Source: an uncultured Gemmatimonadales bacterium (GTDB taxonomy: Bacteria; Gemmatimonadota; Gemmatimonadetes; Gemmatimonadales; GWC2-71-9). From it: a stretch of 64,000 nt of DNA. The position numbers and the translations under genes were made by a program. Below, piece after piece: positions 26,972 through 35,944 of this stretch; the first letter of the stretch is position 1; every line of letters begins with the position of its first letter. A model generated the notes under the pieces. That model searched no databases and was not told the origin of the DNA. It worked only from the letters and a program-made list of their open reading frames with translations. The stretch spans positions 516,601 through 580,600 of the forward strand of contig CAVOOB010000002.1 of the NCBI GenBank assembly GCA_963697435.1, in the 5' to 3' direction.

Positions 26972-27283
26972 TCAAGTCGATGACACGTCGTGCCAGAAGG
27001 AAATCTCCGGCGGGCCGGCGAAAATGGTCGCGGCGCTCTGGATGAACGCCTGGATGTGCGGGGTCTGCATGTGCGGGCCGGTGTAGGCGGCTTGGGAGGT
27101 CCAGCGTTCGTACAGCAGGAACTGGGTGTCGTCCGCCGCGTCCTGCAGGGTGGTGATCTCAAGGCAGTCAGGTTCCCTGGCGAGCACCGTCCGGATCAGG
27201 GGGGCCAGCGCCGCCCGTGCGGCGGCACCCTTGCCGGGTTGTGCGCGGTACCTGATGACGACCGTGACGGGGGTGGCGGGCAT
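26972..27283 (-). CDS. ABM (antibiotic biosynthesis monooxygenase-like) domain protein
   Basis: About 103-aa ferredoxin-like alpha+beta pattern (VTVVIRYRAQPGK...FLLYERWTSQAAYTGPHMQTPHIQAF). Start trimmed to ATG at 27283. Lies 23 nt downstream of the flavoprotein gene. Confidence 0.7.
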   Translation of the reverse strand: MPATPVTVVIRYRAQPGKGAAARAALAPLIRTVLAREPDCLEITTLQDAADDTQFLLYERWTSQAAYTGPHMQTPHIQAFIQSAATIFAGPPEISFWHDVSST

Positions 27284-27306: not shown

Positions 27307-28674
27307 TCAACGAATATCCCCCGCCCTTGGCGAATGCGCCAGCGCCAGGCGCGCCTCTTCGCCCGCGGCCGCGGTCAGGTCCTGGTCGCCCATGGCCACG
27401 CCGACCTTCTTCAGGAACGCGTTGGGCGGTTCGCCACCGGCGAATACCCACATCCAGTCGTTCGGTAGTTCGGTCACAGTGCCGCCGACGGAGATCAACA
27501 CCGACTGCTCGCGCACTTCCGTCGGCTGGGATTCGAAGAGCACGCGGAGCTTCTTCCCTTTCACGGCCTCCTGCAGCTTCCTGGCGTTCCGCTCCTTGAT
27601 CCGGCTGAACTCCGCCTTCCGATAGGAGAGGGTCACCTGGTTCCCCTTCTGATACGCCAGGCCGAGCGCAGCCTCCACCGCACTGTCGCCCCCGCCGACC
27701 ACGAGAATCTTCGAATCGACGTAGGCGTCCGCCTCGATCAGGCTGTACATCACCTTGGGCAGTTCCTCTCCCGGGATGTTCAGCTTTCTCGGCGTCCCAC
27801 GGCGGCCGAGGGCCAGGACGACATGCCGGGTCCGGTAGGTGCCGCCCGTGCTCGTGATGCGGAACGTCGCGTCAGCTTCCCGGTCGATCGACTGCACCTT
27901 TTCGCCAGTGCGAATCTCAAGTCCCGCCTCCTTGATCACGGCACTCCAGAATTCAAGCAGCTCCTCCTTGGAAATTTCGAGCTTCTTGAATTTGCCGTGG
28001 AGCGGGAACTCCACCGGACTCGTCATCACCAGCTTTTGCCTGGGATACTTGGCCACCGTCCCCCCGACCGCTTCCTGCTCGAGGGTCACGTAGGTGAGCG
28101 CCCGTTCCACGGCGCGCAGCGACGCGCTCAGCCCACCGGGGCCCGCGCCGACGATGCACACGTCGCGGACGTCGGGCGCGCTGGGTTGTGAGGCGACCCG
28201 GCGGGCGATCGTGTCCATGCATTCGCGGCCCTGGTTCACCGCGTTCTTGATCAGCGCCAGCCCGCCGAGCTCGCCGATGATGAACAGGCCGGGGATGTTG
28301 CTCTCGAATTCCCGCGAGAGCCGCGGCATGTCGGCGCTGATGCTCGGGTTGGCCATCACGATCTCGATGGCGCCGACCGGGCAGACCTCGGCGCAGAGCC
28401 CATGGCCGATGCACTTGTGCCCGTTGATGATGGCGGCCTTGCCCGCGATCACGGCCAGGACATTCCCTTCCGGGCAGACGTCGATACAGGCGCCGCAGCC
28501 GATGCAGTGCGACACGTCGATGTGCGGATGCTGCGCCCGCGGTCCGCTCGAATGAAGCTTGCCGCGTTCGGCGGCGGCCAGCGCCGCCTGCTCCCGGCGG
28601 TGGGTCTTCCGGATGTGGAGGACCAGCGGGCCGATGAGGAAGAGGCCAAAGACGACGTAAATCAGCAGGTCCAT
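27307..28674 (-). CDS. Membrane-anchored 2x[4Fe-4S] ferredoxin domain fused to FAD/NAD(P)-binding pyridine-nucleotide-disulfide-oxidoreductase-like domain
   Basis: N-terminal TM (MDLLIYVVFGLFLIGPLVLHI) followed by RKTHRRE (positive-inside). CIGCGACIDVCP and CIGHGLCAEVCP clusters. Dinucleotide folds VCIVGAGPGGLSAS and ILVVGGGDSAVEAAL. ATG at 28674 is preferred over the TTG at 28716 used by the track. Confidence 0.85.
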   Translation of the reverse strand: MDLLIYVVFGLFLIGPLVLHIRKTHRREQAALAAAERGKLHSSGPRAQHPHIDVSHCIGCGACIDVCPEGNVLAVIAGKAAIINGHKCIGHGLCAEVCPVGAIEIVMANPSISADMPRLSREFESNIPGLFIIGELGGLALIKNAVNQGRECMDTIARRVASQPSAPDVRDVCIVGAGPGGLSASLRAVERALTYVTLEQEAVGGTVAKYPRQKLVMTSPVEFPLHGKFKKLEISKEELLEFWSAVIKEAGLEIRTGEKVQSIDREADATFRITSTGGTYRTRHVVLALGRRGTPRKLNIPGEELPKVMYSLIEADAYVDSKILVVGGGDSAVEAALGLAYQKGNQVTLSYRKAEFSRIKERNARKLQEAVKGKKLRVLFESQPTEVREQSVLISVGGTVTELPNDWMWVFAGGEPPNAFLKKVGVAMGDQDLTAAAGEEARLALAHSPRAGDIR

Positions 28675-28919
28675 TGTCACTCGGAAGTGTGGGTCGATCG
28701 GCGATGCAGGGTGCAAGTGGGACGGGCAGACTGCACGTGAGGCGCGTCACGCTCGGCCGACGGATGGTCCGGCGGCGCCCGAGTCGATGCACCGTTTGCG
28801 CCTTTCCTCCGGCCGAGCTCGGCCGGGAACAGCGGCGGGGGACCCGGCCAGCCCCCGCGGTACCGCATTCCGCGTTTCGCGACTGAAACATGCCGATCCA
28901 TCCGTAACGAATCGTTGCA

Positions 28920-29045
28920 CCACGAGAGGGCGTCCAATCCAACGTATATGAGTTAACATGTTGTTGTACAACTATTTACGCTACTTCTTCATGATTTGCT
29001 CATTCGGGTAGGAACCTTGCTGAATATGGGTCCGTATTCCTACGG
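28920..29045. promoter_or_regulatory. AT-rich island with clustered palindromes in the divergent intergenic region (candidate promoters/operator)
   Basis: The only markedly AT-rich stretch for many kb. GTTAAC (28952-57), AACATGTT (28955-62), perfect 10-bp palindrome GTTGTACAAC (28963-72), TCATGA and ATGA-N5-TCAT (about 28989-29003). It lies between divergent starts at 28674 and 29069. Confidence 0.45.
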
Positions 29046-29068
29046 CCATCCAGTCACGGACCCACCGC

Positions 29069-30115
29069 ATGACCCCCCACCAGATGGGGGGCGGGGGCGC
29101 GTCGGCTGGCACCCACTCGACCGAAAGCTCGATGTCCACTTCGAATTTGGCTCCCGCCCCTCGCGTTGCTGCCCTGACCGAACGCCCCGTCGCGCCATCG
29201 GCGCCCGTACGCGCACATGTCCCCCGGCGCCCAGTGCCGAAGGCGAAGCGGTCGAAGGCGATGACCGCCGCCCTCGTCTTCGGCGCGGGGCTGGTGGCGT
29301 TGAATCTATTCGGAATGCGGTACTACCTGCTGCCTCGCGCCGAGCAGGTTCGCGACCCGCTCCATGCCTGGCTGCGTCCCTCAGGGTACCTCGGGCAGAC
29401 GGCGGGCGTCCTCGCGCTCCTGATCTTTCTCTTCCTCTGGTTGTACCCGCTTCGGAAGAAGTTCCGGTGGCTCGCCTTCACCGGCGCCATCTCCAAGTGG
29501 CTGAACGTACACGTGCTGGCCGCGCTCGGCCTCCCCCTCCTGGTGGCGGCGCACGCGACCTGGCAGTTCGGGGGGGTCATCGGCCTTGGATTCTGGTCGA
29601 TGATGCTGGTCTGGTTGAGCGGCATCGTCGGTCGATACATCTACGCCAGGATTCCGCGGGGCCAGGCCGGCGTCGAGCTCACGATCGATGAGATCAGCAC
29701 CCAGCGGCAGGAGCTGCTGAACGAGATCGCCGAGCTGTCGGGACTCGAGGCCAAGGAAGTCGAGGCGGTGCTGGCGCCTGACACGGCGCCGACGGTGGGC
29801 CTTGGGTTGTGGCAGACCATGCGCCGGATGGTTGCCGACGACCTCGGTCGGCGACGCGCGGCCGCTCGCCTGCGCCGCCAGATCAAGTTGCGCCGCCCGA
29901 TGCAACGGCGCAGCGACGCCGCAGTGCTGAAGGAAGTCCTTCGCCTCGCCAACCGTGAAATGGCCATGGTACAGCAGGCTCGCATGCTCGGCGCCACGCA
30001 GAACATCCTCCGGTTCTGGCATGTGGCCCACCGCCCTCTGGCGGTGACGGCGCTGGTGGCGGTCATCATCCACGTCATGGTGGTCGTGTCGTTGGGCGCC
30101 ACGTGGTTCCGGTAG
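29069..30115 (+). CDS. Polytopic membrane protein with two H-x13-H pairs in TM helices (candidate di-haem b-type transmembrane electron carrier)
   Basis: About 5 TM. H148-x13-H162 (NVHVLAALGLPLLVAAH) and H321-x13-H335 (HRPLAVTALVAVIIH). A roughly 120-aa charged helical cytoplasmic insert sits between TM4 and TM5. The start is uncertain (ATG 29069, 29132 or 29261). The 3' end overlaps the next gene. Confidence 0.7.
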   Translation: MTPHQMGGGGASAGTHSTESSMSTSNLAPAPRVAALTERPVAPSAPVRAHVPRRPVPKAKRSKAMTAALVFGAGLVALNLFGMRYYLLPRAEQVRDPLHAWLRPSGYLGQTAGVLALLIFLFLWLYPLRKKFRWLAFTGAISKWLNVHVLAALGLPLLVAAHATWQFGGVIGLGFWSMMLVWLSGIVGRYIYARIPRGQAGVELTIDEISTQRQELLNEIAELSGLEAKEVEAVLAPDTAPTVGLGLWQTMRRMVADDLGRRRAAARLRRQIKLRRPMQRRSDAAVLKEVLRLANREMAMVQQARMLGATQNILRFWHVAHRPLAVTALVAVIIHVMVVVSLGATWFR

Positions 30116-32157
30116 GCGAGGGCACGACCGGTGTGTTCCGCGGACTCGTTCGCGCATGCCTCCTGGCCCTCGGCTGGGTGGTGCTGATGTCCACGCCGCT
30201 GGCGGGACAGATCTCGCCGGGCCCGCTCGCAGCCGCGCACGCGACGCTCGAGGGACCGACCCAGTGCACCACCTGCCACGGCAGCCGGCGGGACGCCATG
30301 ACCGGCCAGTGCGCGGCCTGTCACAAGGATATTGGCCGATTGCTCGACCAGGGGCGGGGCTACCACGGCAGCGCCGAAGTGAAGGGCACACCCTGCGCCT
30401 CCTGTCATCCGGATCACGCCGGGAAAGGCTTCGAGATGGTGGAATGGCCGGATGGCGGCATGAAGAGCTTCGACCACAAACGCGCTGGGTGGGCGCTTGC
30501 GTTGAAGCACGCCGAGGCCACGTGCGCGGATTGTCACACCGACGAGTTCCAGGTGCCGGGAGTGAGGGATCTCTCCGTTCGAACGACCGGGCAGGGCTAT
30601 ACCGGTCTGGACCCCACCTGTACCAGTTGCCACGAGGACATCCATCGCGGGGCGCTCAAGCAGAACTGCACGGTATGCCACGATGCCGGTTCGTGGTCCG
30701 TCACCCCGGGGTTCGACCACGACACGACGGCGTATGCGCTCACTGCCAGGCACGCCGATGTGAAGTGCGACGACTGTCACCTCGACGCTCGGCTCTCACC
30801 CCGGAGCGACGGGAAGGGGCACCTGATCCCCGTGTACAAGCCGGTGTCGTTCGAGTCCTGCGCCAGCTGCCACACCGACCCGCACAGTGGGGGGCTGGGC
30901 CCGAAGTGCGCCGACTGCCATAGCACGCGCGGGTTCCAGGTCATCGACAAGAACCGGTTCGACCATGACAGAACCAAGTATCCGCTGCGCGGCAAGCACG
31001 TGACCACGGCCTGCGCCAGGTGCCACAAGGACTTCTCGACGCCGGCCCTGAAGACGCCGAAGTTCGCCACTTGCGTCGAGTGCCACACGGACGCCCACAA
31101 CGGGACCGCCACTCTCGCCGGCAGGCGGGTCGATTGCGCCTCGTGCCACTCGGTCAACGGATTCGCCCTGTCGACGTATACGACCGCGAGCCATGCCACG
31201 ACCCCGTACCCGCTTGAGGGCAAGCACCTGACGGTGAAGTGCGCCGCCTGCCATAGCCGGAGCACCGCGACGACTGCCGCGAAGACGCTCGGCAGTGCCA
31301 GGGTCGTGATACGGCCGAAGTACGCACAGTGCACGGACTGCCATGCTGACGATCATGGCGGCCAACGAATGGCGAGCACCAACAAGGGCGAGTGCGCCGC
31401 CTGCCACCGTGTGACAGGGTGGACTCCGAGCACCTTCGACAGTGCCGCACACGCACAGACGAATCTGGCCCTCGATGGTCGCCACCAGGAGATCGCCTGC
31501 GTGGCCTGTCACGGCCTCGCGCGCGCCGAGCTCCCGCCGATGACCGGGACGGCGACGATCGGCAAGGCTGGATTCCGGTTCCGGATTACCGAGACGGAGT
31601 GCGCCGCCTGCCACACCGATCCGCACCGTGGCCGATTCTCCGACGGGGGCTCCGGGGTCACGCCAATGGGTTGCCCCGCCTGCCATGGCATGCGGGCCTT
31701 CCGGCCGTCGACCACCGACATCGCGGCACACGCCCGATTCGAGTTTCCACTGGAGGGTGCGCACCGTGCCACCCCCTGCTCAGCCTGTCACGACGAACTG
31801 ACGCGCCCTGCCTCCGCCGCCCGGTCCACGCTGGTCCGGGGCTCGGGCGGGTTTGCCGACCTCCGGTTCGAGGCAACGCGGGAATGCGCCGCTTGCCACG
31901 AGACGCCGCACGGCGATCAGTTCGCCGCCTGGGACGCCCGGGGAGGCTGCGCCGCTTGCCACACGGTGGCCGCCTTCGTCCCGGCGGCCAACTTCGATCA
32001 CGACACCGACGCCTCGTTTTCGACCAGGGGCGCCCACGAACGGGTGCCGTGTGCGCGGTGCCATGTGCGTGATGCGGCCGCCCTACCCACGGAACCGTTG
32101 CGCTATCGCCCGTTGTCGGGGCGCTGCGAGGCCTGCCACGGCAAGGAGTCACCATGA
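30103..32157 (+). CDS. Secreted multihaem cytochrome c with 23 CXXCH motifs
   Basis: I counted 23 CXXCH in the translation. Signal peptide (ACLLALGWVVLMSTPLAGQ), no lipobox. Six recognisable three-haem modules CxxCHxDxHxG ... CxxCH ... FDH..T.y.L.G.H....CxxCH. The start is GTG at 30103 or GTG at 30133. Confidence 0.9.
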   Translation: MVPVGEGTTGVFRGLVRACLLALGWVVLMSTPLAGQISPGPLAAAHATLEGPTQCTTCHGSRRDAMTGQCAACHKDIGRLLDQGRGYHGSAEVKGTPCASCHPDHAGKGFEMVEWPDGGMKSFDHKRAGWALALKHAEATCADCHTDEFQVPGVRDLSVRTTGQGYTGLDPTCTSCHEDIHRGALKQNCTVCHDAGSWSVTPGFDHDTTAYALTARHADVKCDDCHLDARLSPRSDGKGHLIPVYKPVSFESCASCHTDPHSGGLGPKCADCHSTRGFQVIDKNRFDHDRTKYPLRGKHVTTACARCHKDFSTPALKTPKFATCVECHTDAHNGTATLAGRRVDCASCHSVNGFALSTYTTASHATTPYPLEGKHLTVKCAACHSRSTATTAAKTLGSARVVIRPKYAQCTDCHADDHGGQRMASTNKGECAACHRVTGWTPSTFDSAAHAQTNLALDGRHQEIACVACHGLARAELPPMTGTATIGKAGFRFRITETECAACHTDPHRGRFSDGGSGVTPMGCPACHGMRAFRPSTTDIAAHARFEFPLEGAHRATPCSACHDELTRPASAARSTLVRGSGGFADLRFEATRECAACHETPHGDQFAAWDARGGCAACHTVAAFVPAANFDHDTDASFSTRGAHERVPCARCHVRDAAALPTEPLRYRPLSGRCEACHGKESP

Positions 32158-33902
32158 GACGCCTGATCTGGCTTCCACTCCTGGCGCTGTCGCTCGCGTT
32201 GGTCGCGGGCGACCTCGCCGCGCAGGAACGGACCACCTCACCGCACGGCGACCTCCAGACCCAGTGCACGGTCTGCCACGGGCCGGATAGCTGGACGGCG
32301 CTTCAGATCAGCAGCCAGTTCGATCACGGGAAACTCGGCTTCCCGTTGACCGGCGCGCACGGCGCGACCACGTGCCGGGCATGTCATACCTCGCTGGACT
32401 TCAAGCTGGCGAGCTCGGACTGCACCGTGTGTCACAGCGACAACCATCGTGGCGAGTTGGGCCCGAACTGTGCCCGGTGTCACACGACGCGCACCTTTGT
32501 CGACCGGGACCTCATGGTTCCGGCGCATCGGTTGACGCGCTTCCCCCTGTCCGGCGGCCACCTGGCGGTCGAGTGCACGCAGTGCCATGCACCGGGCGTT
32601 GGTGGGCAGATGCAGTTCGTAGGGACCTCCACGGCGTGCTTCTCCTGTCACCAGCCCGATTACAACGCTGCGGCGAATCACGTCACGTCGAGCTTCCCCA
32701 CGAGCTGTGAGGGGTGCCACTCGACGGTGGCCTGGAACGCGGCAAACCTCGGGGCGGGGAACCACCCGACGTCGCCCATCGCCCTCACCGGCGTGCACAG
32801 CAGCAACCTGGTGACCTGCGCCCAGTGCCATACGTCGCAGCCCTACACCGCGGTCGCGCGCACCTGTGACGGTTGCCACCACCAGGAGTACCTGTCCACC
32901 AGCGATCCGAACCACGCCGCCTCGGGGTTCTCGACCGACTGTGTGTCGTGTCACCAGCCGGTCGCCAACTGGGCCGGTGCCAAGTTCAATCACCCCTCGG
33001 CGCCGATCGCCCTGACGGGTCCCCACAGCGTCAACCTGGTGGAGTGCACGCAGTGCCACACCAGCCAGCCGTACTCCTCGGTGAGGCAGACCTGCGACGG
33101 CTGCCACCATGCGGAGTACGTGGCCACGACCGACCCGAGCCATGTCGCGGCGGGATACAGCACCGACTGCGCTTCCTGCCACCAGGTCGTCGCCAACTGG
33201 GTGGGTGCCACGGCCAACCACCCGACCACCCCGATCGCGCTCACGGGCGTGCATAGCGCCAACCTCATCCCGTGCACGCAGTGTCATACCACCTCACCCT
33301 ATTCAACGGTGAAGCAGACCTGTGACGGCTGCCACCACGCAGAGTACGTGGCCACTACCGACCCAAATCACGTCTCGGCAGGGTATGGCATCGACTGCGC
33401 CTCCTGCCACCAGCCGGTGGCGAACTGGGCAGGGGCGAACGCCAACCATCCCACCACACCGATCGCGCTGACGGGCGTGCACAGCGCCACTATGGTCACG
33501 TGCACCCAGTGCCACACGACTTCCCCGTACTCGAGCGTGCAGCGCACCTGCGACGGATGCCATCATCCCGAATACGTGCAGCCGACCGACCCCAACCACG
33601 TCATGGCCAACTTCTCGACCACCTGCACGGCCTGCCATGGGTTGGTAGCGAACTGGGCAGGGGCGAAGTTCACCGCGCACGATGGGAGCGTGTCGCAGTT
33701 CCGGATCTACAGCGGCAAGCATAACAACCGGTGGAGCAACTGCGCGGAGTGCCACGCTGCCGGACAGTCGTATGCCGCCACGCCGGCGTTGCTCTGCCTG
33801 AATTGCCACGCGAAAGTCCAGACGGACAAGCACCGCGGGAAGAACTACACGCCCAGCGACTGCGTGCGGTCGGGCTGCCACGCGAACGGATCCAACCCGT
33901 GA
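32154..33902 (+). CDS. Secreted multihaem cytochrome c with 21 CXXCH plus one C-terminal CX4CH motif
   Basis: ATGA overlap with the upstream cytochrome gene. Signal peptide MRRLIWLPLLALSLALVAGDLAAQ, no lipobox. 21 CXXCH counted, plus CVRSGCH near the C-terminus. Recurrent CDGCHH. Confidence 0.9.
   Translation: MRRLIWLPLLALSLALVAGDLAAQERTTSPHGDLQTQCTVCHGPDSWTALQISSQFDHGKLGFPLTGAHGATTCRACHTSLDFKLASSDCTVCHSDNHRGELGPNCARCHTTRTFVDRDLMVPAHRLTRFPLSGGHLAVECTQCHAPGVGGQMQFVGTSTACFSCHQPDYNAAANHVTSSFPTSCEGCHSTVAWNAANLGAGNHPTSPIALTGVHSSNLVTCAQCHTSQPYTAVARTCDGCHHQEYLSTSDPNHAASGFSTDCVSCHQPVANWAGAKFNHPSAPIALTGPHSVNLVECTQCHTSQPYSSVRQTCDGCHHAEYVATTDPSHVAAGYSTDCASCHQVVANWVGATANHPTTPIALTGVHSANLIPCTQCHTTSPYSTVKQTCDGCHHAEYVATTDPNHVSAGYGIDCASCHQPVANWAGANANHPTTPIALTGVHSATMVTCTQCHTTSPYSSVQRTCDGCHHPEYVQPTDPNHVMANFSTTCTACHGLVANWAGAKFTAHDGSVSQFRIYSGKHNNRWSNCAECHAAGQSYAATPALLCLNCHAKVQTDKHRGKNYTPSDCVRSGCHANGSNP
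32760..33671 (+). repeat. Four in-frame tandem repeats of 228 bp (76 aa, three CXXCH each) inside the second cytochrome gene
   Basis: Units start at 32760, 32988, 33216 and 33444, each beginning NHP(T/S)xPIALTG.HS...C(A/T)QCHT..PY....(R/Q)TCDGCHH.EY....DP.H......(T/I)(D/T)C.(S/A)CH..VANW.GA. A degenerate half unit precedes them (CFSCHQPDYNAAANH...CEGCH). Confidence 0.9.
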
Positions 33903-35944
33903 GCCCACGCGCGAGGCGCCTGACAGGGCTGCTCGGAATGGCATTGCTGGCGGCGTGCACCGCCGGCGAGGCCCGCGCCCAGGACTCGACCGAGGTGGTC
34001 GCGCTCTACATGAAGGAAGGGGCGGTTATCCGCGGGCGTATCCTCGCGGACAACGGCCCGAACGGTATTCGGATCCGGAGCCAGCAGTCGGGCGCGACGT
34101 TCGTGGTTGCGGCCGCGCAGATCGACAGCGTGGTACGGCCCAAAGCGTCCGTATCGCCATCGACGCCCGTGCCCGAGCCGATGGTACCTGCCTCGCAAGC
34201 ACTGGACACTCCGGCACCACCTCCGAGTCCTGCGGCGGCCACCGCGGTGGACACCGCACCCATGACGATCGATGTGGCCTCGCCGACCACAGTTATGGAA
34301 GGACTCGCGCCGCCACCCAGTGCGGTGCCGGCGCAAGACATGATCGCGCCAGTCGTCATCGACACCGCCCCGCCCGACACGGCCGCGCACCGGACGACCG
34401 TCACTTTCATGTCCGGCGCCGAGATCTACATCGGGGCCGGCCGGCTTGACGGGTTGCTGGAGGGCTCGGAGGTCTCGGTCATGCAGGGAGACGACGTCGT
34501 CGGGATACTGCGTGTGAAATACGTCGCCTCCCACCGCTCCGCGTGCGAGGTTGTGTCGGGGGCGACCGGAATCGCGCTGGGGGATGTGATTCAGTTTCGC
34601 CGGCAGATGGCGTCCCCCGAAATGCTCTCCGCGTCGTCGATGTCCGGGCCGCCCCGCCCGCGGCGGATGAGCGGGCCCGGGCTCCACGGCCGGTTCGGGA
34701 CCCGATACCTGCGAGCGACCACGACGACGATGGCCGGCGGACAGGAACTGGGAAGCAACGGCTTCGACCAGCCCTCGCTCGACGCCCGCATCAACGGCAT
34801 CGGCCTCGGCGGCACACCGCTCGGGGTGGCGCTCGATCTGCGGACCCGTCAGACGACCACGACCTCGGCTGGCCGCACGGAGGTGGATGGACATACGCGG
34901 GTTTATCAGGCCGTCATGTACTGGAATCAGCCTGGCGCAGGCTTCCGCGCGGCCGCGGGCCGGCAGTACCTGACGGCGGTCAGTTCCATCGGCCTTCTGG
35001 ACGGCGCGTTGCTCGAGTTGAATGGGGGAAGAGTGTCGGTCGGTGCGTTCGCCGGATTCGAGCCTGACATCGCCACACTCGGGTTCTCCAGCACGGTCCA
35101 CGACTTCGGCCTCTACGCGAGCGTGCACAACCGGCCAGGGACGTCGACGGTGACGTCGGCGACCATTGGTGCCGTCGGGTCCTATGAAGGAGGAGATGCG
35201 CGCCGGGAGTGGGGCATCGCGCAGTTCAACATGAACAACCGGTACGTCTCGCTCTACCTGCTGCAGGAGCTCGATTATTACCGGCCGTGGAAACTCGCGG
35301 GGCCGAACGCCGAGGAAAGCGCCATTTCGGCGACGAGCCAGTTTGCGAACCTCTCCTTCCGGGCGACCCGCTGGCTGGCGATCAATGGTACCTATGACAA
35401 ACGCCGCAGCGTGCCGACCCTTCGCGACTTCACCAATCCGGAGACCGAATTCGATGACACCTACCGCCAGGGCTACGGAGGTGGTGTGCAGGTGACCGGC
35501 CGACAGGTGTACGGCGGTGGCGACTGGCGGCGGAGCACCGGTGGAAGTTCGGGCGGCGCCAATTCCTTCACCACGACCCTCGGCGTCAATCGCATCACCA
35601 AGTTCAACGTCGGACTGTCGGCCCGGGCGACCTGGTACCAGAATGATGTCTTCTCCGTCGACACCACCGCCGCGGTGCTGCAGACCTCCGGGCAACTCTA
35701 CTCCGGGCGGATGAGCCTCGACCCCTTCGGACCGATTCATCTTGATCTGAGCGCGGGCCTCCGCCAGGAGGACAACCCGATCGCGCTGGGGCTGCAGAAG
35801 TCGACCTGGTACGGCGTTGACATGGATCTGAACGTCGGGCGCGCCTGGTTCATCTCAGTCTCAGCGCTCCGACAGAACGATACTGCCAACCCCGGGACCA
35901 GCACCCTGACGCAGATCTACGGCGGGGTGACCTGGCGGTTCTAG
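33899..35944 (+). CDS. Putative outer-membrane beta-barrel protein with N-terminal domain and Pro/Ala-rich linker
   Basis: GTG at 33899 overlaps the cytochrome stop (GTGA). Signal sequence with possible lipobox LAAC or SPase I site ARA-QD. Pro/Ala-rich segment about aa 80-165. The C-terminal roughly 430 aa show alternating hydrophobic/polar strand pattern with Gly/Tyr/Asn-rich turns, ending ...IYGGVTWRF (terminal aromatic). Confidence 0.75.
   Translation: MSPRARRLTGLLGMALLAACTAGEARAQDSTEVVALYMKEGAVIRGRILADNGPNGIRIRSQQSGATFVVAAAQIDSVVRPKASVSPSTPVPEPMVPASQALDTPAPPPSPAAATAVDTAPMTIDVASPTTVMEGLAPPPSAVPAQDMIAPVVIDTAPPDTAAHRTTVTFMSGAEIYIGAGRLDGLLEGSEVSVMQGDDVVGILRVKYVASHRSACEVVSGATGIALGDVIQFRRQMASPEMLSASSMSGPPRPRRMSGPGLHGRFGTRYLRATTTTMAGGQELGSNGFDQPSLDARINGIGLGGTPLGVALDLRTRQTTTTSAGRTEVDGHTRVYQAVMYWNQPGAGFRAAAGRQYLTAVSSIGLLDGALLELNGGRVSVGAFAGFEPDIATLGFSSTVHDFGLYASVHNRPGTSTVTSATIGAVGSYEGGDARREWGIAQFNMNNRYVSLYLLQELDYYRPWKLAGPNAEESAISATSQFANLSFRATRWLAINGTYDKRRSVPTLRDFTNPETEFDDTYRQGYGGGVQVTGRQVYGGGDWRRSTGGSSGGANSFTTTLGVNRITKFNVGLSARATWYQNDVFSVDTTAAVLQTSGQLYSGRMSLDPFGPIHLDLSAGLRQEDNPIALGLQKSTWYGVDMDLNVGRAWFISVSALRQNDTANPGTSTLTQIYGGVTWRF

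What the first reader, a model, noticed from the sequence alone, without database searches (positions are those of the whole stretch)
29510..30073. Two H-x13-H pairs in separate TM helices of the first operon gene, a di-haem b signature
Seen in sequence: H148-x13-H162 lies in NVHVLAALGLPLLVAAH (codons 29510-12 and 29552-54). H321-x13-H335 lies in HRPLAVTALVAVIIH (30029-31 and 30071-73). Both stretches are hydrophobic enough to be TM helices.

Established knowledge: two helices each carrying two His spaced 12-14 residues apart is the ligand geometry for two stacked b-haems spanning a membrane. Examples are cytochrome b of bc1/b6f and the ferric-reductase domain of NOX/FRE/STEAP.

Unusual features are the roughly 120-aa highly charged helical insert (aa about 195-315) between the two His-bearing helices, and a Pro/Arg-rich N-terminus.

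Inference: this protein is the inner-membrane electron gate feeding the downstream multihaem cytochromes.
Basis: partly seen in the sequence, partly recalled or inferred. Interest (0 to 1): 0.75.

Follow-up and report, generated by a model that had tools for sequence, protein, structure and literature searches.

The report
Di-haem membrane gate of cytochrome conduit
The gene encodes a five-helix inner-membrane protein with four strictly conserved histidines that most likely hold two haems and pass electrons to two giant multihaem cytochromes and an outer-membrane porin. This protein type was already predicted in 2017, but its conserved partnership with a membrane-anchored NAD(P)H iron-sulfur flavoprotein appears not to have been described.

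Summary
H148-x13-H162 and H321-x13-H335 sit in predicted TM3 and TM5 of ORF 29069-30115. Across 89 homologues (down to 21% identity) the four His are 100/99/100/100% conserved and the x13 spacing never varies.

The protein matches every published hallmark of the "conserved inner-membrane protein" of PCC3/PCC4 porin-cytochrome clusters (He et al. 2017):
- about 300 aa and five TM helices
- SGxxG on TM4
- W-x3-H-x13-H on TM3 and TM5

Downstream, translationally coupled, lie a 23-haem cytochrome, a 22-haem cytochrome and a putative porin. The roughly 120-aa insert is a family hallmark, not an oddity.

It encodes a TM-anchored protein with two iron-sulfur cluster motifs and a Bdr/TrxR-like FAD/NAD(P)H module. 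This gene adjoins the membrane-protein gene in 77/80 Gemmatimonadales loci and in Acidobacteriota, Calditrichota, Electryoneota and Bacteroidota.

I therefore favour a split, NOX-like input: NAD(P)H to FAD to FeS to two haems b to the cytochromes. Quinol coupling is not excluded. Nothing has been tested experimentally. Pfam, hhalign and Foldseek give no significant link to FRD or cytochrome b.

The parts
27307..28716 (-). Divergent partner gene, 469 aa. It has an N-terminal TM anchor (about residues 16-36), a ferredoxin-like domain with two iron-sulfur cluster motifs (C71-x2-C74-x2-C77-x3-C81-P and C102-x2-H105-x2-C108-x3-C112-P) and a Bdr/TrxR-like FAD (GAGPGG) plus NAD(P)H (GGGDSA, SYR...R) module.
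   Evidence: Pfam Pyr_redox_3 4e-43 and Fer4 families. Best PDB match is Bdr/YpdA 7a7b, 2e-27. The TM anchor and motifs are conserved across phyla (A3). It is adjacent to the membrane-protein gene in 77/80 Gemmatimonadales loci.
28717..29131 (.). Divergent intergenic region between the flavoprotein gene and the membrane-protein operon. It is the presumed site of promoters for both.
   Evidence: ORF map. No sigma-70 consensus was found. Promoter function is inferred only.
29069..30115 (+). Inner-membrane protein (IMP), the putative di-haem b transmembrane electron carrier. The ORF is 348 aa; the probable true start is ATG 29132 (M22).
29318..29386 (+). Conserved periplasmic loop between TM1 and TM2 (YY...R.R.PLH.WL.PSG). 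It includes H99 (29363-65).
   Evidence: Invariant or near-invariant columns in A1 and A2. A role in docking the cytochrome is inferred.
29495..29557 (+). TM3, carrying W144-x3-H148-x13-H162.
29570..29641 (+). TM4, carrying the S184-G185-x-x-G188 motif (29618-29632).
   Evidence: G185 and G188 are 89/89 and S184 is at least 90%. The motif was described in PMC5566968.
29645..30016 (+). Cytoplasmic charged helical domain (residues 193-316) between TM4 and TM5.
   Evidence: AF2 helices with pLDDT above 90. 22 K/R residues. Length is conserved family-wide.
30017..30103 (+). TM5 and its cytoplasmic extension, carrying W317-H318-x2-H321-x13-H335.
30103..32157 (+). Multihaem cytochrome c with 23 CxxCH motifs and an N-terminal signal peptide or anchor. 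The alternative start GTG 30133 is 18 nt after the IMP stop codon.
32154..33902 (+). Multihaem cytochrome c with 21 CxxCH and 1 Cx4CH motifs and a signal peptide. Its start overlaps the stop of the preceding cytochrome gene (ATGA).
33899..35944 (+). Putative outer-membrane beta-barrel (porin), about 681 aa. Its GTG start overlaps the preceding stop (GTGA). It has a signal peptide and ends in ...TWRF.
   Evidence: Orthologues lie in the same cluster in other phyla. There is no Pfam hit. The barrel fold is inferred, not modelled.

Best explanation
The ORF encodes the inner-membrane subunit of a PCC3-type trans-envelope electron conduit.

The membrane protein is a five-helix protein in which H148/H321 (cytoplasmic side) and H162/H335 (periplasmic side), on the parallel helices TM3 and TM5, ligate two stacked b-type haems. 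These carry electrons across the membrane.

On the periplasmic side it hands electrons to the co-translated 23-haem cytochrome. From there they go to the 22-haem cytochrome held in or at the outer-membrane porin.

On the cytoplasmic side the most likely partner is the divergently encoded flavoprotein, which has a membrane anchor, two iron-sulfur cluster motifs and a FAD/NAD(P)H module. Its single N-out/C-in helix would complement the five-helix, C-out membrane protein. Together they would form a split, NOX-like NAD(P)H:acceptor oxidoreductase: NAD(P)H to FAD to FeS to inner haem b to outer haem b to cytochromes c to an extracellular acceptor.

Shown here: the motifs, their conservation, the predicted topology and the synteny.

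Inferred: haem binding, the flavoprotein contact, the outward direction of flow and independence from quinones.

Sub-confidences:
- di-haem transmembrane carrier serving the cytochromes: about 0.8
- flavoprotein as its cytoplasmic partner: about 0.6
- outward, NAD(P)H-driven flow: about 0.5
For: - The four His and the x13 spacing are invariant in 89 homologues and again in a 66-sequence set spanning Gemmatimonadota, the FCB group and Acidobacteriota.
- Five TM segments; the positive-inside rule gives an N-in topology with TM3 and TM5 parallel. Two independent AF2 models are confident (pLDDT 88 and 91).
- Sub-threshold Pfam hits cluster on three families: DUF4405 (62/89 members), Ferric_reduct (53/89) and Ni_hydr_CYTB (33/89). 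From my own knowledge, these are related di-haem cytochrome b families. Ferric_reduct profile positions 1-60 align co-linearly with TM2-TM3.
- The protein has all published hallmarks of the PCC3/PCC4 inner-membrane protein.
- The four downstream genes have overlapping or tightly spaced junctions, and the cytochromes carry 23 and 22 haem motifs.
- The membrane protein, both cytochromes and the porin are orthologous in clusters of other phyla.
- The flavoprotein gene is adjacent in 77/80 Gemmatimonadales loci. It is divergent in 72 and lies between the membrane-protein gene and the first cytochrome gene in 5.
- The flavoprotein gene directly follows the membrane-protein gene in 9 of 11 distant loci. 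These include Ca. Electryonea, Calditrichota, Acidobacteriota and the Emticicia oligotrophica plasmid.
- The flavoprotein's TM anchor, the K/R stretch that follows it, its FeS ligands and its FAD and NAD(P)H motifs are conserved across phyla. Its closest solved relatives are NADPH-dependent Bdr/TrxR/FNR enzymes.
Against: - There are no experimental data for any family member. PCC3 was still described as functionally unverified in 2025.
- There is no significant Pfam or NCBIfam hit for the window protein and no PDB sequence hit.
- hhalign against the NOX2 TM domain gives probability 0.15%.
- Foldseek against the PDB finds nothing below E=0.4 for two models.
- Some family members have no flavoprotein gene nearby (L091, L093, L069, L072). 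Proteobacterial PCC3 was described without one.
- The apparent membrane-protein/flavoprotein fusion proteins are frameshift artefacts, so there is no true fusion (Rosetta-stone) evidence.
- Outward electron flow from NAD(P)H conserves no energy, so the physiological role is unclear.
Confidence: 0.55

Rival explanations
1. Quinol:cytochrome c (or cytochrome c:quinone) oxidoreductase. The di-haem membrane protein exchanges electrons with the membrane quinone pool, as proposed by He et al. 2017 and as CymA, CbcL and ImcH do. The flavoprotein would be an accessory or unrelated neighbour.
For: - This is the published model for PCC3/PCC4 inner-membrane proteins.
- Some clusters lack an adjacent flavoprotein gene (L091, L093, L069, L072).
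- Weak similarity to Ni_hydr_CYTB. From my own knowledge, that family includes quinone-reactive cytochromes b.
- An FRD-family protein, MsrQ, was recently reported to carry ubiquinone (title and abstract of PMC12525009).
Against: - The membrane-protein/flavoprotein gene adjacency is kept across at least five phyla, with overlapping or 4-nt gene junctions and a conserved membrane anchor on the flavoprotein.
- No quinone-site motif could be identified.
- The conserved 120-aa cytoplasmic domain has no role in this model.
Confidence: 0.25
2. Electron-uptake conduit. Electrons from extracellular Fe(II), Mn(II) or reduced organic matter flow inward through the cytochromes and the di-haem protein to a cytoplasmic acceptor via the flavoprotein. 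This is the direction proposed for PCC3 in iron oxidisers.
For: - PCC3 was found in Fe(II)-oxidiser genomes and is hypothesised to be an iron oxidase.
- The gene for the inner-membrane component of one PCC3 copy is upregulated in iron-oxidising Sideroxydans CL21 cells.
Against: - From established bioenergetics, inward electron movement works against the inside-negative membrane potential. Reducing NAD(P)+ (about -320 mV) from Fe(II) is strongly uphill.
- From general knowledge, Gemmatimonadales, Acidobacteriota and Emticicia are organoheterotrophs.
- The direction of flow was not tested here.
Confidence: 0.1
3. The conserved His do not bind haem. They could bind another metal or serve a structural or transport role, and the gene could be a maturation or assembly factor for the neighbouring cytochromes.
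For: - There is no significant homology to any haem protein family and no structural match.
- Cytochrome c biogenesis genes (ccsA, and a TPR protein with a weak CcmH/CycH-like Pfam hit) occur in related clusters.
Against: - Two W-x3-H-x13-H motifs on parallel helices, one helix apart, with invariant spacing are the specific bis-His di-haem geometry (PMC3591440; PMC5566968).
- The recurrent weak hits go only to the di-haem b families named above.
Confidence: 0.05

Closest known systems
Conserved inner-membrane protein (IMP) of the putative porin-cytochrome clusters PCC3 and PCC4 (He et al. 2017, Front Microbiol 8:1584; PMC5566968)
   Same: About 300 aa and five TM helices, with SGxxG on TM4 and W-x3-H-x13-H on TM3 and TM5. 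It is encoded with a porin, a very large periplasmic multihaem cytochrome (21-27 haems in PCC3, 23 here) and a second large cytochrome (10-35 haems in PCC3, 22 here). It was proposed to be a di-haem b electron carrier across the inner membrane.
   Different: - PCC3 was reported only in Proteobacteria and as a four-gene set. Here the hosts are Gemmatimonadales, with relatives in Acidobacteriota and the FCB group.
- A fifth, conserved gene for a TM-anchored FeS-flavoprotein accompanies the membrane-protein gene.
- Direct sequence homology to the proteobacterial IMPs was not tested.
- He et al. proposed coupling to the quinone pool.
NADPH oxidase / ferric reductase domain superfamily (NOX, FRE, bacterial SpNOX and CsNOX5; Pfam PF01794)
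   Same: - N-in topology with two His on TM3 (x13) and two on TM5, ligating an inner and an outer haem b.
- Cytosolic NAD(P)H and flavin input, with electrons leaving on the outer face.
- A cytoplasmic TM4-TM5 loop sits at the position of NOX loop D.
   Different: - Five helices, not six. The sixth may be supplied in trans by the flavoprotein anchor.
- The dehydrogenase is a Bdr/TrxR-like flavoprotein plus a ferredoxin-like domain on a separate polypeptide, not an FNR-like domain.
- It has a 120-aa helical cytoplasmic domain.
- The acceptor is a multihaem cytochrome, not O2 or Fe(III).
- The PF01794 match is far below threshold.
MsrQ (YedZ) with MsrP
   Same: A stand-alone bacterial FRD-type membrane haem protein that passes cytoplasmic or membrane reducing power to a periplasmic redox partner encoded next to it.
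   Different: MsrQ lacks the first canonical His (PMC3591440). It has six TM helices and serves a molybdoenzyme, not cytochromes c.
Inner-membrane entry points of characterised extracellular electron transfer pathways (CymA, CbcL, ImcH, CbcBA)
   Same: The same functional position: linking cytoplasmic-membrane electron carriers to periplasmic multihaem cytochromes and a porin-cytochrome conduit.
   Different: From my own knowledge, those are quinol dehydrogenases carrying c-type haems (NapC/NirT type) or FdnI/HydC-like b subunits fused to multihaem c domains. There is no sequence relation, and none has an NAD(P)H-flavoprotein partner.

Membership tests
PCC3/PCC4-type inner-membrane protein (He et al. 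2017) | About 300 residues with five transmembrane helices | tested here: met
   348-aa ORF (327 aa from M22). Five hydropathy peaks and five long helices in AF2. Family members are 270-330 aa.
PCC3/PCC4-type inner-membrane protein (He et al. 2017) | SGxxG motif on TM4 | tested here: met
   S184-G185-I-V-G188 lies in TM4. G185 and G188 are 89/89 and S184 is at least 90%.
PCC3/PCC4-type inner-membrane protein (He et al. 2017) | W-x3-H-x13-H on both TM3 and TM5 | tested here: met
   The motif starts at W144 and W317. W317 is 89/89, W144 is at least 90%, and the His are 88-89/89.
PCC3/PCC4-type inner-membrane protein (He et al. 2017) | Encoded in a cluster with a porin and two very large multihaem cytochromes | tested here: met
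   A 23-haem cytochrome, a 22-haem cytochrome and a 681-aa putative outer-membrane protein follow with overlapping gene junctions. The cellular location of each cytochrome was not predicted.
PCC3/PCC4-type inner-membrane protein (He et al. 2017) | Sequence homology to the proteobacterial PCC3 IMPs (for example Sideroxydans lithotrophicus ES-1) | not tested
   No reference sequence was available. The named relatives found were Gemmatimonadota, Acidobacteriota, Calditrichota, Electryoneota, Fidelibacterota and Bacteroidota.
Ferric reductase domain superfamily (PF01794; NOX/FRE/STEAP/MsrQ) | Four canonical His, two on TM3 and two on TM5, spaced 13 and 12-13 residues (PMC3591440) | tested here: met
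   H148/H162 on TM3 and H321/H335 on TM5, both x13.
Ferric reductase domain superfamily (PF01794; NOX/FRE/STEAP/MsrQ) | Significant match to the family profile | tested here: not met
   The window protein scores E=3.2 and 8.3 bits against a cutoff of 28. 53/89 relatives give sub-threshold hits, the best at 1.5e-4. hhalign of the family profile against the NOX2 TM domain gives probability 0.15%.
Ferric reductase domain superfamily (PF01794; NOX/FRE/STEAP/MsrQ) | Six-helix transmembrane domain (from general knowledge of NOX and MsrQ) | tested here: not met
   Only five TM helices. A sixth helix supplied by the flavoprotein anchor is an inference.
Ferric reductase domain superfamily (PF01794; NOX/FRE/STEAP/MsrQ) | Fold similarity to solved NOX, STEAP or CsNOX5 TM domains | tested here: inconclusive
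   Foldseek against the PDB gives no hit below E=0.4 for two models.
Cytochrome b of bc1/b6f | Match to cytochrome b profiles, with the His pairs on helices B and D of an N-in protein (general knowledge) | tested here: not met
   No cytochrome b family appears among the weak Pfam matches or the PDB profile hits. The His helices are the 3rd and 5th, so their orientation is opposite to helices B and D.
Prokaryotic cytochrome b561 / DUF4405 (PF01292, PF14358) | Score above the Pfam gathering threshold | tested here: not met
   Only sub-threshold hits to the last helix: DUF4405 in 62/89 members (best 5.7e-6) and Ni_hydr_CYTB in 33/89 (best 9.1e-5).
Any haem b protein | Binds b-type haem through the conserved His | not testable with these tools
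   This needs spectroscopy of the expressed protein.

The most novel reading that the evidence does not exclude
The membrane protein and the divergent flavoprotein form a split, NOX-like enzyme. It oxidises cytosolic NAD(P)H and sends the electrons through two FeS clusters and two b haems straight into a 23-haem plus 22-haem porin-cytochrome conduit, bypassing the quinone pool. This would be a quinone-independent, non-energy-conserving extracellular electron outlet. It would be widespread in Gemmatimonadota, Acidobacteriota and the FCB group, including the cultured Emticicia oligotrophica.
Probability: 0.4. Interest if true: 0.8.

Novelty: new variant of a known kind. Interest (0 to 1): 0.55.

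Why it matters
Porin-multihaem-cytochrome clusters of this type are being reported as abundant and transcribed in soils, peat and sediments. However, recent work describes only the outer parts, and nobody knows how they connect to metabolism.

If the inner end is an NAD(P)H-fed di-haem gate rather than a quinol oxidase, two things follow. Abundant soil heterotrophs (Gemmatimonadota, Acidobacteriota, Bacteroidota) would have a direct valve from the cytoplasmic pyridine-nucleotide pool to extracellular acceptors. That changes how such clusters should be read in energy and redox budgets. It would also be a prokaryotic two-piece analogue of NADPH oxidase.

A cultured host (Emticicia oligotrophica DSM 17448, plasmid pEMTOL02) makes the question directly testable.

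Tried and rejected
1. Fusion (Rosetta-stone) evidence. Long hits P0150 (863 aa) and P0261 (582 aa) combine the membrane-protein and Fer4/Pyr_redox_3 domains. Their sequences show half of the membrane protein, then out-of-frame junk, then the flavoprotein N-terminus. They are frameshift read-throughs on 2x-coverage contigs. I count them as adjacency only.
2. Foldseek against the PDB with two independent high-confidence models gave no hit below E=0.4. I treat this as uninformative rather than as proof of a new fold.
3. hhalign of the family profile against the human NOX2 TM domain was not significant. The NOX2 sequence was verified as identical to 8gz3_B.
4. phmmer and a family profile against PDB sequences matched only coiled-coil noise on the insert.
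6. A scan of genome contigs with the diverse alignment failed for lack of a conserved stretch. The scan was run with the closer alignment instead.
7. An ABM-domain ORF downstream of the flavoprotein gene occurs in only 10 closely related loci, so it is not a core component.
8. Cluster-member look-ups gave no taxonomy.
9. Literature searches for the flavoprotein partnership found nothing in the held library. This is not proof of absence.
Full report
**Observation.** The ORF at 29069-30115 (+) encodes 348 aa. Hydropathy gives five TM segments: 65-83, 107-127, 143-163, 168-191 and 322-345. H148/H162 lie in the third and H321/H335 in the fifth. Shuffling the sequence gives two or more H-x13-H pairs in only 1.4% of trials.

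The stronger evidence is conservation. The family is large: more than 1,000 hits in one search, and 2,101 representatives at 50% identity clustering with E<=1e-3. In an 89-sequence alignment reaching 21% identity, H148, H321 and H335 are invariant and H162 is 88/89. Both spacings are exactly 13 in every sequence. A second alignment spanning Gemmatimonadota, the FCB group and Acidobacteriota gives the same invariant set. H318 (84/89) and the loop residue H99 (60/89, Tyr in 22) are further conserved His.

**Anatomy and topology.** The N-terminal 64 residues (9 K/R), the 129-142 loop (RKKFRW) and the 193-318 segment (22 K/R) are predicted to be cytoplasmic. The 84-106 and 163-166 loops and the three C-terminal residues are predicted to be periplasmic. 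TM3 and TM5 therefore both run from inside to outside. H148 and H321 sit near the cytoplasmic face, and H162 and H335 sit towards the periplasm. This is the arrangement needed for an inner and an outer bis-His haem.

AlphaFold2 with the 89-sequence alignment gives a confident model (pLDDT 88.1, pTM 0.77). The insert forms four long helices, the last running into TM5. A model of a 29%-identical relative behaves the same way (pLDDT 91.2; TM5 is part of a 58-residue helix).

The insert length is conserved family-wide (143-181 residues between the second and third His). It is a defining cytoplasmic domain, not a peculiarity of this gene. The N-terminus is disordered and variable. Most homologues begin at the equivalent of M22, so ATG 29132 is the likelier start.

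**Relation to known families.** The protein has no Pfam or NCBIfam hit. It has no PDB sequence hit, even when searched with the family profile.

Scanning all 89 members at a lax threshold gives recurrent weak hits to three families: DUF4405 (62 members, best 5.7e-6), Ferric_reduct (53, best 1.5e-4) and Ni_hydr_CYTB (33, best 9.1e-5). From my own knowledge these are related di-haem cytochrome b families. The Ferric_reduct profile aligns co-linearly with TM2-TM3, and the other two align with TM5. All are below the curated cutoffs.

hhalign against the verified NOX2 TM domain is not significant. Foldseek against the PDB finds nothing for either model. The protein therefore works like a di-haem b carrier of the FRD type, but it cannot be filed as a member of PF01794 or of cytochrome b.

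**Prior art.** He et al. [quoted passage not shown] Its features are about 300 aa, five TM helices, SGxxG on TM4 and two W-x3-H-x13-H motifs on TM3 and TM5. They proposed that it binds two b haems, resembles FRD and relays electrons across the inner membrane, possibly to quinones.

The window protein has W144-x3-H148-x13-H162, S184-G185-x-x-G188 and W317-x3-H321-x13-H335, so it fits every listed hallmark. PCC3 consists of this IMP, a periplasmic cytochrome (21-27 haems), an extracellular cytochrome (10-35 haems) and a porin. It was still "functionally unverified" in 2023-2025.

**The operon.** The cytochrome gene at 30103/30133-32157 has 23 CxxCH motifs and a signal peptide or anchor. The next gene (32154-33902, ATGA overlap) has 21 CxxCH plus one Cx4CH and a signal peptide. 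The last gene (GTG 33899, GTGA overlap, to 35944) has a signal peptide, no Pfam hit and ends in ...TWRF, as expected for an outer-membrane barrel. These are the only multihaem genes in the window.

The same four genes, in order, occur in 80 Gemmatimonadales loci. Recognisable orthologues of all four are in loci from Ca. Electryonea and Emticicia and in two metagenomic contigs (L091, L093). L091 carries P0154, whose close relatives are Acidobacteriota; L093 is of unknown origin. The Calditrichota locus shows the membrane protein and both cytochromes but no detectable porin match.

Immediately upstream and divergent (27307-28716, minus strand) lies a 469-aa protein. It has an N-terminal TM helix, a ferredoxin-like domain with two iron-sulfur cluster motifs, and a Pyr_redox_3 FAD/NAD(P)H module. 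Its closest solved relatives are NADPH-dependent Bdr/YpdA, thioredoxin reductases and TrxR-type ferredoxin-NADP reductases. It has no CxxC disulfide centre (9 Cys in total, 7 of them in the two FeS motifs).

This gene adjoins the membrane-protein gene in 77 of 80 Gemmatimonadales loci. It is divergent in 72 and lies on the same strand, between the membrane-protein gene and the first cytochrome gene, in 5.

In distant lineages it directly follows the membrane-protein gene, with overlapping or 4-nt junctions. These are Ca. Electryonea clarkiae, Calditrichota, unnamed FCB bacteria, a type IX secretion-bearing lineage (likely Bacteroidota), two Acidobacteriota contigs and plasmid pEMTOL02 of the cultured Emticicia oligotrophica. 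In RefSeq the Emticicia genes are annotated "hypothetical protein" and "NAD(P)-binding domain-containing protein".

Across these phyla the flavoprotein keeps its N-terminal helix followed by K/R residues (N-out, C-in). It also keeps its FeS ligands and its GAGPxG, GGGDSAxE and SYR...R motifs. A five-helix protein ending outside, plus a one-helix protein starting outside, reproduces the six-helix-plus-dehydrogenase layout of NOX in two pieces. This is an inference.

**Evidence against the partnership.**
- Two distant loci (L091, L093) and two Gemmatimonadales loci (L069, L072) show no flavoprotein gene in the DNA available.
- Proteobacterial PCC3 was described without one.
- The apparent fusion proteins turned out to be frameshift artefacts.

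**Mechanism.** The most likely path is NAD(P)H to FAD to two FeS clusters to the inner haem b (H148/H321) to the outer haem b (H162/H335). From there electrons go to the 23-haem cytochrome, then to the 22-haem cytochrome at the porin, then to an extracellular acceptor.

From established bioenergetics, outward electron flow is favoured both by redox potential and by the inside-negative membrane potential. It conserves no energy, as with NOX. The role would then be redox balancing, mineral or organic-matter reduction, iron acquisition or extracellular superoxide formation. None of these was tested.

The main rival is the published quinone-coupled model (about 0.25). Inward electron uptake is thermodynamically unattractive with an NAD(P) endpoint (about 0.1). 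A non-haem role for the His is unlikely (about 0.05).

**Novelty.** The di-His signature and the "electron gate" reading are already in the literature at the bioinformatic level. What appears new is the extension to Gemmatimonadota, Acidobacteriota and the FCB group, and above all the conserved flavoprotein partner. I did not find it discussed in the papers I could search, including recent work on PCC3 and on Acidobacteriota porin-cytochrome clusters. My literature access is partial, so this is a cautious "new variant of a known kind".

Noticed in passing
window 28362-28412 (minus strand; residues 102-118 of the flavoprotein): The second iron-sulfur motif reads C102-x2-H105-x2-C108-x3-C112-P. 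A His stands where the second Cys normally is, and it is invariant in six orthologues from different phyla. The second Cys of the first motif (C74) is replaced by V or S in four of the six. The clusters may therefore be a His-ligated [4Fe-4S] plus a [3Fe-4S] or otherwise atypical cluster.
   Followed up: partly
window 26972-27283 (minus strand): A small ORF of about 103 aa lies directly downstream of the flavoprotein gene. By eye it looks like an ABM (antibiotic biosynthesis monooxygenase) fold protein; this was not checked against Pfam. It is present in only 10 closely related Gemmatimonadales loci and absent from distant clusters.
   Followed up: partly
L090 (NC_018749.1, Emticicia oligotrophica DSM 17448 plasmid pEMTOL02, record 78197-89995): A cultured Bacteroidota isolate carries the whole cluster on a 100-kb plasmid: ccsA, then the membrane-protein gene ('hypothetical'), an 'NAD(P)-binding' flavoprotein gene, two 'cytochrome c3 family' genes (635 and 1001 aa) and a 538-aa hypothetical (likely the porin). 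This is a ready experimental system.
   Followed up: partly
L084, L086, L088, L096, L097 (gene after the flavoprotein gene); L093 (gene before the membrane-protein gene): A TPR protein of about 190-245 aa is a conserved extra member of the cluster in Calditrichota, Electryoneota and Acidobacteriota. In the Acidobacteriota loci L096 and L097 it gives a Pfam hit to the CcmH/CycH-type TPR family (weak in L097). It is absent from the Gemmatimonadales window.
   Followed up: no
L094 10198-11055: In one lineage, probably Bacteroidota because a neighbouring cytochrome has a type IX secretion tail, an additional FNR-like NAD_binding_1 protein (285 aa) sits between the flavoprotein gene and the cytochrome genes.
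   Followed up: no
P0097, P0115, P0117 (homologues of the window protein): JGI names these 327-aa membrane proteins 'dihydropyrimidine dehydrogenase (NAD+) subunit PreT'. This is probably annotation transferred from artefactually fused gene models that join the membrane protein and the flavoprotein.
   Followed up: partly
L096 9180-9995, L091 6809-7564, L097 8359-9153: An unannotated protein of about 250-270 aa lies immediately upstream of the membrane-protein gene in L096 and L091, and two short genes upstream of it in L097. It has no Pfam hit. No counterpart was looked for in the window.
   Followed up: no
window 29318-29386 (residues 84-106): The predicted periplasmic TM1-TM2 loop is one of the most conserved parts of the protein (YY, R, PLH/Y, W, PSG). 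It may be the docking site for the 23-haem cytochrome, or it may supply a ligand near the outer haem.
   Followed up: no
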